DNA of 5,265 bases. It comes from Octopus vulgaris (lineage: Eukaryota). The stretch is from assembly GCA_951406725.2 (NCBI GenBank), contig CATOCA020000108.1:1-5265 (forward strand). The letters are read 5' to 3'. Below are positions 1 through 5,265 of this stretch, piece by piece; positions within the stretch are counted from its first letter, which is position 1, and each line of letters opens with the position of its first letter. The notes beneath the pieces were generated by a model. The model made no database searches and had not been told where the DNA came from. It was given only the letters and a program-made list of their open reading frames with translations. The position numbers and the translations under genes were made by a program.

Positions 1-163
1 CAATGCTGGTGTGTTTAGGTCCCCGTAACTTAGCGATTCGGCAAAAGAGACTGATAGAATAAGTACTTGGCTTACAAATAATAAGCCCTGGGATCAATTG
101 TATTCGACTAAAGGCGGTGCTCCAGCATGGCCTCAGTCAAATGACTGAAAAGAATAAAAGAAT
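1..163 (+). mobile_element. 3' portion of a tRNA-derived SINE (resembles the abundant Octopus SINE family); cut by the window edge
   Basis: Seen: GC-normal segment ending GGCGGTGCTCCAGCATGGCC-TCAGTCA-AA-TGACTGA, then tail (AAAAGAAT)x2 at 148-163 running into (TA)n. Recognised from memory as close to the octopus SINE body (gatgctggtgtgtttacgtccccgtaacttagcggttcggcaaaagagaccgatagaataagtac...); not database-verified. Confidence 0.85.
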
Positions 164-442
164 ATATATACATATACATATGTATATGCATATATATACA
201 CACATATATATGCACATATATATATATACATACATCTAAATACATATACATACATATATATTCATTTATATATAGATACATATAAATATATATATACATA
301 TAAATATATATATACATATATAAATATATATATACATATATATGTATATATACATATATATATATATGCATATACATGTATATATACATATATATATATA
401 TGCATATACATGTATATATACATATATATATATATATGCATA

Positions 443-475
<33 letters not shown>

Positions 476-506
476 GCATATACATGTATATATATATATA
501 TGCATA

Positions 507-537
<31 letters not shown>

Positions 538-686
538 GCATATATATGTATATATACATATATATATGCATATACATGTATATATACATGTATATATATA
601 TGCATATATATATGCATATATATATATATATATATATATAAATGCATATATACATATATATATGCATATACATGTATATATACATA

Positions 687-723
<37 letters not shown>

Positions 724-812
724 GCATATATATATATATATATAAATGCATATATACATATATATATAAATGCATATATACATATATATGCATATACATG
801 TATATATACATA

Positions 813-877
<65 letters not shown>

Positions 878-1237
878 TATATGTATATACATATATACAT
901 ATATATATGCATATATATATATGCATATATATATATATAAATATACATATATATGTATATACATAGATATATATATATGCATATATATATATATATACAT
1001 ATATATGCATATATAAATATATATACATATATATATATATGTATATATATATACATATATGCATATGTATATATATGTATATATATATACATATATGCAT
1101 ACATATATATATATATATATATATACATATGTATGCATATATATTGATATATATATATACTTAGATATGTGCTCATATATACAAAATATATATGTATGCA
1201 TATATATACGTATATATGTATTTACCTACATATATAC
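164..1237. repeat. Interrupted (TA)n microsatellite with higher-order TGCA/CATG/TACA-punctuated units
   Basis: Almost continuous TA alternation. TGCA recurs at about 20-40 bp spacing over ~365-830, and block 640-720 recurs at ~768-840. Confidence 0.97.
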
Positions 1238-1239
1238 AG

Positions 1240-1358
1240 CCAGAAGGATTGCTGTGTGGTATATAGCTTCATTTGGAACCATATGATTGCGGGTTGAGTC
1301 GCTTGGCATGGTACGTTGGGCAAGTGTCTTCCACTATAGTTTCATGCTAACCAGTCTT
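1240..1358 (+). mobile_element. Degenerate 5' head (tRNA-related region plus CORE-like start) of a SINE, 3'-truncated
   Basis: A-box-like TTGCTGTGTGG (1249-1259), B-box-like GGTTGAGTCGC (1292-1302), then TTGGGCAAGTGTCTTCCACTATAG (1316-1339), which resembles the CORE-SINE CCTTGGGCAAGT motif and the remembered octopus SINE head. Boundaries approximate. Confidence 0.75.
1249..1302 (+). promoter_or_regulatory. Decayed RNA polymerase III type-2 internal promoter (A and B boxes) of the SINE head
   Basis: Boxes are 32 nt apart, a tRNA-like spacing. The B box departs from GGTTCRANNCC (GTTG instead of GTTC), so it is probably inactive. Confidence 0.55.
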
Positions 1359-1360
1359 CA

Positions 1361-1390
1361 ATATTTGAATATACATATGTATGTATGTAA

Positions 1391-1420
<30 letters not shown>
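1361..1420. repeat. Short (TA)n/(TATG)n tract between the SINE head and the LINE tail
   Basis: atatttgaatatacatatgtatgtatgtaaatatatat... seen directly. Confidence 0.9.
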
Positions 1421-1421
<1 letters not shown>

Positions 1422-1787
1422 CTTTGATACTTTGATAGGTTTCGGCCATTATTGGCCCAGGCCATGTCTAACTTAATAGCACCACCTGGTGAAGTCTTTC
1501 AAGTCAGAATTTGGGCATTATGGCCCACTCAAGTAGAGAGTTATTGTTTACAGAGAAATATCCAGGTGTAGGGGGTTTATCTGGGATTTCTTGAAGGAAT
1601 CTGTCCAAAGACTTCTTGAACCCTATAGGGTCAGTTTCTGTTTTAATGTGTTTTGGGTAATGTTAAAGAGAGGGGGGCCAATTGAGGTGAAATAATTGTG
1701 CCGTATTGTTGTTATGAGATGAGAGTGCGATTTTTGTTTTGGGCGGATGGCACGGGGCTCAAGCCTTGGATGTACCTTAAAGGTGAT
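1421..1787 (-). mobile_element. 5'-truncated non-LTR retrotransposon (LINE, CR1-like clade) 3' end
   Basis: Minus strand carries an ORF2 C-terminus-like peptide, stop TGA at 1506-1504, an ~83-nt 3' UTR with hairpin GGCCA-ATAA-TGGCC (1457-1444) and a terminal octamer (ATCAAAGT)x2 (1436-1421). It is flanked by (TA)n on both sides. A short tandem-repeat tail rather than poly-A is typical of CR1/L2-type LINEs. Confidence 0.85.
1504..1787 (-). pseudogene. Frameshifted C-terminal fragment of LINE ORF2 (downstream of the reverse transcriptase domain)
   Basis: 1787-1659 reads [43 protein letters not shown]. After an apparent 1-nt deletion at ~1657-1658, 1656-1504 reads [50 protein letters not shown]. 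The joined pattern R.N.F...GP.LFN..P..I......FK..LD.FL..IPD.P...GY.....NSL resembles invertebrate CR1-like ORF2 C-termini. Confidence 0.82.
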
Positions 1788-1832
1788 ATATATATATACA
1801 TATATATATTTGAATATATGTATATATATATA

Positions 1833-1867
<35 letters not shown>

Positions 1868-1904
1868 GTATGTATATATACATATGTATGTATACATACA
1901 TATG

Positions 1905-1944
<40 letters not shown>

Positions 1945-1987
1945 TACATATGTCTGTATATATATATATATATATATAAATATACAC

Positions 1988-2018
<31 letters not shown>

Positions 2019-2131
2019 CATATGTATATTCAAATATATATATGTATATATATATATATACATACATATGTATATTCAAATATATATATGTATATATATA
2101 TATATATATATACATACATATGTATATTCAA

Positions 2132-2180
<49 letters not shown>
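1788..2180. repeat. Interrupted (TA)n microsatellite containing a 46-52 bp minisatellite
   Basis: CATATGTATATTCAAAT repeated at 2019-2035, 2065-2081 and 2117-2133. Confidence 0.95.
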
Positions 2181-2181
<1 letters not shown>

Positions 2182-2442
2182 GGTTTAATTTCAAAAAAAC
2201 TATTCACAAAAGAATTATATAGGAATATATAATTCAGCTAGCCGTCTATATATATATTATATATATATATATATACATACACACACATACAGATATATAT
2301 TTTTATTACATCTGTATCTCAATATGTACATATATATGCATGAATATATACACATATATATACATAGATATGATTTTTATTCTATATATATATACATTTA
2401 AATATCTCAATATATGTGTATATAATATATACATATACAATT

Positions 2443-2499
<57 letters not shown>

Positions 2500-2610
2500 C
2501 ATTCATATATATATACATATCAATATAAATGTGTATGTATATAAGTATATACGTACATACATTTATATATATATATATATCAATATATACATGTATATAT
2601 ATACATATAT

Positions 2611-2750
2611 ATATACATCTATATATATAAATATATATACATCTATATAAATATATATACATCTATATAAATATATGTACATCTATACATATATATATAT
2701 ATATATATAAATATATATACATCTATATATAAATATATATCTATATATAT
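2611..2750. repeat. ~20-22 bp minisatellite (ATATATATACATCTATATAA)
   Basis: Exact copies at 2631-2650 and 2651-2670; variants at ~2611, ~2671 and ~2711. Confidence 0.85.
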
Positions 2751-2930
2751 CAACATATATATATATATGTATATATATTTTTTGATACATGTTAATACCA
2801 TCACATATCATTATATATGTATTATATATATATGCGTGTTAGAGTATATGTGTATAGCTGTCTAAATATATATTCATATACATACATATACATATATACA
2901 TATATATATATACACACATATATACATATA

Positions 2931-3110
2931 TATCCATATATATACACACATATCCATATATACATATATATATACACACATATCCATATATACATATATA
3001 TACACACATATCCATATATACATATATATACACACATATCCATATATACATATATATACACACATATCCATATATATACACACACATCCATATATACATA
3101 TATATACACA
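2931..3110. repeat. ~28 bp minisatellite (TATCCATATATACATATATATACACACA)
   Basis: CC marker at 2934, 2954, 2984, 3012, 3040, 3068 and 3088 (spacings 20, 30, 28, 28, 28, 20). Confidence 0.9.
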
Positions 3111-3145
3111 CATTACTATATATATATATATATATATATATATTG

Positions 3146-3178
<33 letters not shown>

Positions 3179-3451
3179 TATCTATATATACATATTTATA
3201 CACACATATATATCTATATATACATATTTATACACACATTACTATATATATATATTTATATATATATATATACACACACATTACTATATATATATACACA
3301 TATATACATATATATATATACACACATATATACATATATATCCATATATACATACATATAGATATATATATGCTTATAGATACATACAGATAGTCATAAA
3401 TATATATATAAATATATACATACATGTTCATATATCTCAATATATACAAAC

Positions 3452-3493
<42 letters not shown>

Positions 3494-3525
3494 TATTGCT
3501 GTGTCTAGAGAGGGTAATTATATGA

Positions 3526-3562
<37 letters not shown>

Positions 3563-4090
3563 ATATATTTATAAATATATTACATGTACACACACACACA
3601 TATATATATATATGTATATATACACAAATATATACACATCAATTTATATATATTATTATCCTGTTATATCTACTAATAACAGATACGTTGTGTCATTCAA
3701 CTAAAGAATTACTCAGTGGTCTTTATTGTGGAGATATTATGTGGTGAAAAATAGAGGCTGGACTGACTTTCAAGTTTTTGACAACTAGCCTTTCTTGGAC
3801 AGGTGAAGAAAGCCTAACAGGCCAAGACTCACAATCACTATCAATGCTCTTATGGTAAATATATAGTATACATGCATATATATATATACATAAACATGTG
3901 TTAGTAAGTTGTGTACCATTACTTGATAAATGAAAAGATGCGTTTATATATACATATATCTACATATTGCATATATGTATATAGATATGTGTTTATGTAT
4001 AAGTATAGATGCTTGTATATTTTCATGCACACTCCTTTGCATACATACTTGAAGATTTGTTTTAGAAATAAATACACATGTATTTGTAAA

Positions 4091-4900
<810 letters not shown>

Positions 4901-5265
4901 TATATTTACAAACACACGTACATACGTATAAAGGCATAAATGTATACACACGCACGTTTGATGTTACGAACAGAAATAGAAATGAAAAAAACACATGCAT
5001 TTCCTTTCTTTTAATTTGACAGAAGTCAATAAAGGGACGAGCTTTTAGTGCATTGCCGAGATAAACATATATACACACATATTCATTCATACATACATAA
5101 ATATACAGGTGCGCGTCCACTCACCCGTACACATAACGCGTCACGCAAACATTCAATTAGCAACTTTTCAAAGTTCCATTTTTTTAATTCTTTTTTTTTT
5201 CATTTTATTTTTTTTTAAGTTTTGCGTTTTACGTTTTCAAAATATTTATTGAATTACGTATTCGT

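What the first reader, a model, noticed from the sequence alone, without database searches (positions are those of the whole stretch)
113..1486. SINE and CR1-like LINE share a covarying 3' double-hairpin plus octamer tail: candidate SINE/partner-LINE pair
Seen: the SINE 3' end (113-163, +) is GGCGGTGCT-ccag-CATGGCC-TCAGTCA-aa-TGACTGA running into (AAAAGAAT)x2. The LINE 3' UTR (1486-1421, -) is GGTGGTGCT-attaagttaga-CATGGCC-TGGGCCA-ataa-TGGCCGA-aacct-(ATCAAAGT)x2. Motif order is identical. In the terminal stem two pairs differ compensatorily (A-T vs G-C, T-A vs C-G). GGYGGTGCT can pair with the downstream AG(A)CATGGCC in both, and both end in an 8-bp tandem repeat. Established: many SINEs carry the 3' tail of a stringent-type LINE, whose reverse transcriptase recognises a 3' stem-loop (e.g. 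eel UnaL2/UnaSINE1, turtle CR1/PolIII SINE). Inference: this SINE is mobilised by this LINE lineage, probably a sister subfamily since loops and octamers differ, and the covarying hairpins are the recognition element. I cannot tell whether this pairing is already published.
Basis: partly seen in the sequence, partly recalled or inferred. Interest (0 to 1): 0.72.

Follow-up and report, generated by a model that had tools for sequence, protein, structure and literature searches.

The report
SINE's true partner is another LINE
A very abundant short jumping element in this likely octopus genome ends in the same predicted double-hairpin tail as a whole group of LINE retrotransposons, and it was likely copied by a rare LINE family whose tail it nearly duplicates, not by the distantly related LINE lying next to it.

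Summary
In detail: both tails are present, both fold into two hairpins, and their likeness beats 2000 of 2000 shuffles. The pairing does not hold. The genome has many CR1-group LINE families with this tail plan. Family G matches the SINE tail without gaps (median 82% identity against 58% for the window LINE, family A), sharing loop 1, stem 2 and the AAAAGAAT octamer. It also overlaps the SINE in age and flank type. Family A is only 41-42% identical to G in protein, lies on another deep branch, is younger, and sits in (TA)n in 23 of 24 copies against 7 of 44 SINEs. The two-hairpin tail with a fixed G·G mismatch recurs in 5 of 17 non-host homologues, so it is likely an ancient lineage-wide signal. 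Against: G is rare (112 exact tails against 96,486 SINE tails), so other families may have helped. Verdict: a new member of the known stringent SINE/LINE pairing; bivalve cases are published.

The parts
1..163 (+). 3' part of a ~395-nt non-coding SINE; its 5' ~230 nt are cut off by the contig start
   Evidence: 40 of 40 scored hits, 2998 candidates; head read in the duplicate locus L073; 96,486 exact 29-nt tail matches in the genome, control 0
113..132 (+). SINE hairpin 1, with G116·G129 mismatch and G117-U128 wobble; likeness to LINE family G begins here
   Evidence: fold; upstream comparison with G
133..148 (+). SINE hairpin 2 (CAGTC/GACTG stem, the same stem as family G; T133 is copy-specific)
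148..163 (+). (AAAAGAAT)2 terminal octamer, shared with LINE families G and C, not with A
1421..1787 (-). 5'-truncated copy (367 nt) of young APE-RT LINE family A, inserted in (TA)n
   Evidence: 98.4% to a long copy, one 1-nt gap; long copy has Pfam RVT_1 and Exo_endo_phos_2; 5,514 exact A-type hairpin-1 matches
1504..1787 (-). last ~95 codons of ORF2, frameshifted in this copy, with stop codon
1460..1486 (-). LINE A hairpin 1 (same stem, long loop)
1444..1457 (-). LINE A hairpin 2 (GGCCA/TGGCC)
1421..1436 (-). (ATCAAAGT)2 terminal octamer
1245..1355 (+). older 5' fragment (head region) of the same SINE family, no tail
   Evidence: 23 hits in 400 kb of evenly chosen genome stretches, the six printed at 74-78% identity

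Best explanation
The SINE ends in a 51-nt tail that matches the 3' end of LINE family G without gaps, and it was likely copied in trans by the ORF2 protein of G-type LINEs, which would recognise the predicted double hairpin; the window LINE (family A) is a distant cousin with the same tail plan. Shown: tail identity, family tree, ages, flanks, covariation between families. Inferred steps: (1) a Pol III SINE RNA gained the tail from an ancestor of the C/G branch, probably by template switching at the base of hairpin 1, where the likeness begins; (2) ORF2 binds the two abutting hairpins, reading the G·G/G-U stem as the general signal and loop 1 (4 nt in SINE, G, C, B, D; long in A) as the family-specific signal, as in the zebrafish L2 model; (3) target-primed reverse transcription starts in the octamer repeat; (4) an old SINE wave coincided with C-type LINEs and the main younger wave with G.
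For: A pattern joining ORF2 C-terminal codons to the SINE's exact stem 2 gave 60 matches, control 0: 52 family G, 4 family H, 4 SINE or other, by my reading of the listing. A coding-only query without the tail returned G copies; 28 of 29 non-query copies end in this tail. Identity to the window SINE tail: G 0.82 (n=28), B 0.76 (16), C 0.71 (27), D 0.65 (16), A 0.58 (28). Pairwise identity: young SINE 87% (23 copies from evenly chosen stretches), G 92% (29 top hits), old SINE 68% (10), C 75% (29), A 100% (28 top hits). (TA)n right after the tail: SINE 7 of 44, G 8 of 27 (p=0.23), A 23 of 24 (p=5e-11), B+D 27 of 30 (p=1e-10), background 8.6%. Structure: 4 of 12 pairs change on both sides among 14 host tails, 9 of 12 with 5 non-host tails added. 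A model built from host tails alone finds non-host 3' ends at E 2.4e-9 and 1.6e-4. Stringent loop-specific recognition: PMC4176376, abstract and passages.
Against: No mobilisation assay. G is rare: 112 exact 27-nt tails against 96,486 SINE 29-mers. The eight long G copies examined align to ORF2 in pieces or only in part; none gave one unbroken full-length match. SINE and G differ in loop 2 and in the spacer. Family H also has the SINE's stem 2. One SINE subfamily is 95% identical (16 copies), slightly younger than the G copies seen. G, A and C ages come from top BLAST hits and lean young. (TA)n flanks decay with age, which confounds the comparison with A. Within the host genome hairpin 1 shows no two-sided change. 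The five non-host rows were chosen because they fit the structure.
Confidence: 0.72

Rival explanations
1. The tail came from the C/G branch, but amplification was shared: recognition is mainly structural, so abundant short-loop families (B, D, H) or an unfound younger G-like family moved many SINE copies.
For: B and D have the same hairpin 1 with a 4-nt loop and give 5,619 pattern matches (the first 100 listed are all B- or D-type); B subfamilies span 85-100% identity; G is rare; H shares stem 2.
Against: B and D copies sit in (TA)n in 27 of 30 cases, the youngest SINE subfamily in 3 of 16 (p=2e-6); their terminal repeats differ from the SINE's.
Confidence: 0.2
2. One reading: the window LINE family A, or a sister subfamily of it, mobilises the SINE.
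For: Real likeness of tails and two compensatory pairs; A is young, with long open ORF2 copies.
Against: Lowest tail identity of five families; long loop 1 in A, A2 and A3; different octamer; 41-42% protein identity to G; copies about 100% identical against 87% for the SINE; (TA)n flanks 23 of 24 against 7 of 44.
Confidence: 0.06
3. Chance or convergent hairpins with no shared origin.
For: The motifs are short.
Against: 0 of 2000 shuffles; gap-free 51-nt match to G beginning at the hairpin base; reversed-pattern controls 0.
Confidence: 0.02

Closest known systems
Bivalve CORE- and V-SINEs with CR1-14_CGi / CR1-Zenon tails (PMC4824008, PMC4758252, PMC11481361; passages, and supplementary file 4 of the last read whole)
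   Same: Mollusc SINE with a central domain and a CR1-group LINE tail; stem-loop with compensatory changes; shared stretch of 35-61 bp at 72-95% identity; several SINE types share one tail.
   Different: The tail sequences in that supplement do not show this motif; the LINEs here have an ORF1 and 8-nt or shorter terminal repeats, not the ORF1-less, poly(A) layout given for Zenon (PMC13343379, passages).
Eel UnaL2/UnaSINE1 and zebrafish ZfL2-1/ZfL2-2 stringent recognition (PMC4176376 abstract and passages; PMC3747384 passages and part of its table)
   Same: 3' stem-loop plus short terminal repeat; stem read generally and loop read family-specifically; an unpaired stem base matters in UnaL2.
   Different: L2 clade, tested experimentally; here two abutting hairpins with a G·G mismatch, untested.
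Octopus SINEs OK, OR1, OR2 (Ohshima and Okada 1994; seen only as cited in PMC4824008, PMC4758252, PMC5804259; the name OK is recalled)
   Same: tRNA-like head, CORE-type motif, octopod host; this SINE is probably one of them (inference).

Membership tests
Stringent SINE/LINE pair (SINE with family G) | SINE 3' end homologous to the LINE 3' UTR end | tested here: met
   gap-free 51 nt, median 82%
Stringent SINE/LINE pair (SINE with family G) | shared stem-loop kept through compensatory change | tested here: met
   folds; pair counts across families; SINE and G stems themselves are identical
Stringent SINE/LINE pair (SINE with family G) | same terminal short repeat | tested here: met
   AAAAGAAT or AAGAGAAT in G; AAAAGAGT or AAAAGAAT in the SINE
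Stringent SINE/LINE pair (SINE with family G) | overlapping periods of activity | tested here: inconclusive
   transversion distance: young SINE 0.047 (quartiles 0.020-0.061), G 0.026 (0.021-0.032); G set biased to top hits
Stringent SINE/LINE pair (SINE with family G) | trans mobilisation depends on the tail | not testable with these tools
   needs a cell or in vitro assay
Stringent SINE/LINE pair (SINE with window family A) | best tail match, same repeat, same age and target | tested here: not met
tRNA-derived SINE | Pol III head from a tRNA | tested here: inconclusive
   A- and B-box-like stretches seen in L073 against a recalled consensus; ARAGORN found 0 genes in 8 loci and Rfam no tRNA match
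CORE-SINE | CORE domain after the head | tested here: inconclusive
   the CCTTGGG motif named in PMC5786205 follows the B-box-like stretch; no full CORE alignment made
CR1 group LINE | ORF2 with AP endonuclease and RT, no RNase H, no C-terminal CCHC finger | tested here: met
   Pfam on families A and B; no CCHC pattern in the last 300 aa of A
CR1 group LINE | RT groups with reference CR1 elements | not tested
   the 120 homologues listed carried no clade names; the tree has no reference clades; the post-RT motif resemblance is recalled
Canonical vertebrate CR1 | esterase-type ORF1 | tested here: not met
   ORF1 gives weak Myb/SANT-like (A) and Torus/CCCH (B) hits, below Pfam cut-offs, and no esterase
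Zenon | no ORF1 and a poly(A) tail (PMC13343379) | tested here: not met
   ORF1 present in A and B; tails end in short repeats

The most novel reading that the evidence does not exclude
Two stacked hairpins with a fixed G·G mismatch beside a G-U wobble are an ancient, structure-defined 3' signal of a whole invertebrate CR1-group lineage. Its reverse transcriptase tends to stop or switch template at the base of hairpin 1, which makes the lineage a repeated source of new SINEs in one genome (two tRNA-like heads and a 5S head on the same tail), and a LINE with only hundreds of copies drove some 300,000 SINE insertions.
Probability: 0.35. Interest if true: 0.65.

Novelty: new member of a known kind. 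Interest (0 to 1): 0.42.

Why it matters
SINEs are a main repeat class of octopus genomes (11.6% in O. vulgaris, most recently active families unclassified; PMC13282606, part 1 of 3 read). Naming the likely partner of one of the most abundant explains how it spread. The families here are a natural series of loop, stem and repeat variants on one fold, so the rule 'stem general, loop specific', shown so far for fish L2, becomes testable in a CR1-group lineage. It also warns that a neighbouring LINE with a similar tail need not be the partner.

Tried and rejected
The first partner search required codons for N-S-L and found only C, D and E copies and SINE look-alikes (11 matches); G has N-S-I and was missed. 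Family C was my first candidate and was displaced by G on stem 2, identity and age. Rfam on the window gave only TA-repeat matches to miRNA models, all listed ones below gathering scores; the repeat finder was swamped by (AT)n. Target-site duplications of the window copies cannot be read because both flanks are (TA)n. The 'young SINE' identity used a loose anchor and was replaced; the first G flank count there (9 of 36) had the same fault, and 8 of 27 is used. PDB gave only distant L1, R2 and group II intron RTs. RTE or other clades were not screened directly for the tail; one of 56 tails in the 400-kb sample had LINE coding sequence upstream, tested only with CR1-type probes. Two papers were not held (PMC231371, PMC4795812). 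Repbase, Dfam and the SINEBase supplement could not be seen and may already list these families or the pair.

Full report
Setting. The window is a whole 5265-base contig of a 2.8-Gb genome, 96% and 92% identical in two blocks to a chromosome stretch at C10:7567771, so likely a duplicate haplotype (inference). An ORF2 homologue from Argonauta hians (63-64%) and the repeat landscape suggest an octopod. Most of the window is (AT)n.

Observation. Both tails are as described. Each folds into hairpin 1 (three pairs, a G·G mismatch, then a G-U pair and three or more pairs) and hairpin 2. The SINE/LINE alignment score of 42 was reached by 0 of 2000 shuffles. The two compensatory pairs are real; a third pair is broken in the LINE, and T133 is private to this SINE copy (1 of 54).

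The SINE. The duplicate locus gives the missing 5' ~230 nt: A- and B-box-like stretches (judged from recalled consensus; ARAGORN and Rfam found no tRNA), a CCTTGGG motif that PMC5786205 names in CORE and Ceph domains, an inner microsatellite, a body and the tail. An exact 29-nt tail pattern occurs 96,486 times, control 0. In 40 evenly chosen 10-kb stretches a tail model gave 56 hits: 45 with the SINE body, 1 with LINE coding sequence, 10 other. That extrapolates to about 3x10^5 copies (inference). There is an old subfamily (10 copies, 68% pairwise) and a younger one (23 copies, 87%).

The window LINE (family A). It is a 367-nt 5'-truncated copy, 98.4% identical to a long copy, with a 1-nt deletion. 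Long copies encode endonuclease and RT. The 28 top-hit copies compared are 99.2-100% identical, and 23 of 24 are followed by (TA)n. A-type hairpin 1 occurs 5,514 times exactly.

Other families with this tail plan. Flanks and pattern searches revealed A2, A3, B and its subfamilies, C, D, G and H/E (the letters are my labels). The decisive search joined ORF2 C-terminal codons to the SINE's exact stem 2: 60 matches, control 0, of which 52 are family G, 4 family H and 4 SINE or other. A query from G's coding end, without the tail, returned copies of which 28 of 29 non-query ones end in the same tail; one is broken after hairpin 1. G and the SINE differ in loop 2, in the 4-nt spacer and at the variable base between the hairpins, and the likeness starts at the first G of hairpin 1. 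Median identity to the window SINE tail: G 0.82, B 0.76, C 0.71, D 0.65, A 0.58; copies whose anchor was not found were left out (n = 28, 16, 27, 16, 28).

Relationships. In a tree of 33 ORF2 C-terminal halves (one row dropped for lack of residues; midpoint root; broken copies read with X), B, C, D, G and H form one group, and A, A2, A3, the Argonauta protein and 11 other homologues the other, each 100/100. A is 41-42% identical to G and 56% to an unnamed homologue. A is thus not a sister subfamily of the tail donor.

Age and target. Transversion distances: young SINE 0.047, G 0.026, C 0.10, old SINE 0.138; the G and C sets are top hits and lean young. (TA)n within 55 nt of the tail: SINE 7 of 44 (5 of 18 in the evenly chosen stretches alone), G 8 of 27, C 10 of 22, A 23 of 24, B 14 of 17, D 13 of 13, background 8.6%. 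The SINE resembles G (p=0.23) and differs from A and from B+D (p about 1e-10). Decay of (TA)n with age is a confounder, though the youngest SINE subfamily (95% pairwise) is also low, 3 of 16.

Structure. Eight further tails all fold with the two hairpins and the G·G mismatch; z-scores run from -0.9 to -3.5. In G, C, B and D an extra outer pair makes the hairpins abut. Among 14 host tails, 4 of 12 pairs change on both sides, all in hairpin 2 (12 of 500 shuffles reach this; cells with such change 11, 0 of 500); hairpin 1 is nearly invariant. With five non-host tails, 9 of 12 pairs change on both sides, but those five were picked for fitting. A metagenome scan gave 80 loci. I printed 41 whose match neared the C-terminus and tested the 17 with this lineage's C-terminal motif and enough downstream DNA. 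A strict descriptor, written after I had seen them, matched 5 of 17, against 0.03 expected from shuffles and 0 of 101 coding windows. Independently, a model built from host tails only found 2 of 80 loci at E<0.01 and a third at 0.19, all just after ORF2 on the sense strand. Twelve of the 17 did not fit the strict descriptor.

Mechanism. Shown: shared tail, tree, flanks. From the literature: stringent LINE ORF2 binds its 3' stem-loop, stem generally and loop specifically (PMC4176376). Inferred: the SINE gained the tail from the C/G branch by template switch and was copied by G-type ORF2; loop 1 likely separates the short-loop branch from A. In keeping with a switch point at the hairpin base, 17 of 30 family-C tail matches start within 5 nt upstream of hairpin 1 or inside it (ungapped comparison with one reference copy), and a 5S rRNA copy is joined to this tail. 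The main weakness is G's rarity: 112 exact tails, perhaps several hundred copies.

Known context. Mollusc SINE/CR1-group tail pairs with compensatory stem-loops are published for bivalves (PMC4824008, PMC4758252, PMC11481361). Ten literature searches and the passages read showed no octopus pair with this tail. Seen as passages: PMC4824008 (supplement file 2 searched, file 1 not searchable), PMC4758252, PMC3531059 (no supplement held), PMC9068888, PMC11481361 (supplements searched, file 4 read whole), PMC5786205, PMC5804259, PMC13343379, PMC10294476, PMC3747384, PMC8967140, PMC4176376 (with abstract); PMC13282606 part 1 of 3 plus a term search. The 1994 octopus SINE paper, Repbase and Dfam were not seen, so absence from print is not established.

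Verdict. Real feature, partner reassigned, known kind of system. Interest 0.42; the lineage-wide RNA signal and the SINE-birth route are the parts worth following.

Noticed in passing
L158:6167-6345 (+): A 5S rRNA copy (Rfam RF00001, 41.4 bits, above the gathering score) is joined 14 nt later to the same double-hairpin tail: a 5S-headed SINE or a single chimera.
   Followed up: partly
L052:2635-2860 (-): A second, ~225-nt SINE-like element with a tRNA-like head carries the family B tail almost exactly: a likely second SINE/LINE pair; only one copy examined.
   Followed up: partly
L033-L060, L212-L241: Young LINE families A, B and D are followed by (TA)n in 23 of 24, 14 of 17 and 13 of 13 copies and pile up in TA tracts: likely microsatellite targeting.
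   Followed up: partly
L162-L191: 17 of 30 family C tail matches are tail-only insertions starting at or inside hairpin 1; A and B show single examples (L056, L161).
   Followed up: partly
window 60-110; L122-L161: The SINE body motif just before the tail is shared with other abundant repeats that end differently: 47 of 75 motif hits in 400 kb lack this tail, suggesting tail swapping after a shared domain.
   Followed up: partly
L063:3623-5023 (+); L072:3587-4525 (-): ORF1 of A and B appears to combine a Myb/SANT-like N-terminus with a CCCH-type finger (weak Pfam hits), not the esterase of vertebrate CR1.
   Followed up: no
window 1-5265: The whole contig duplicates C10:7567771 onward at 92-96% identity with indels in the microsatellites: likely an unmerged haplotype.
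   Followed up: partly
window 3655-3870 and 4925-5265: Non-microsatellite islands with no match in 400 kb of evenly chosen genome stretches; not identified.
   Followed up: no
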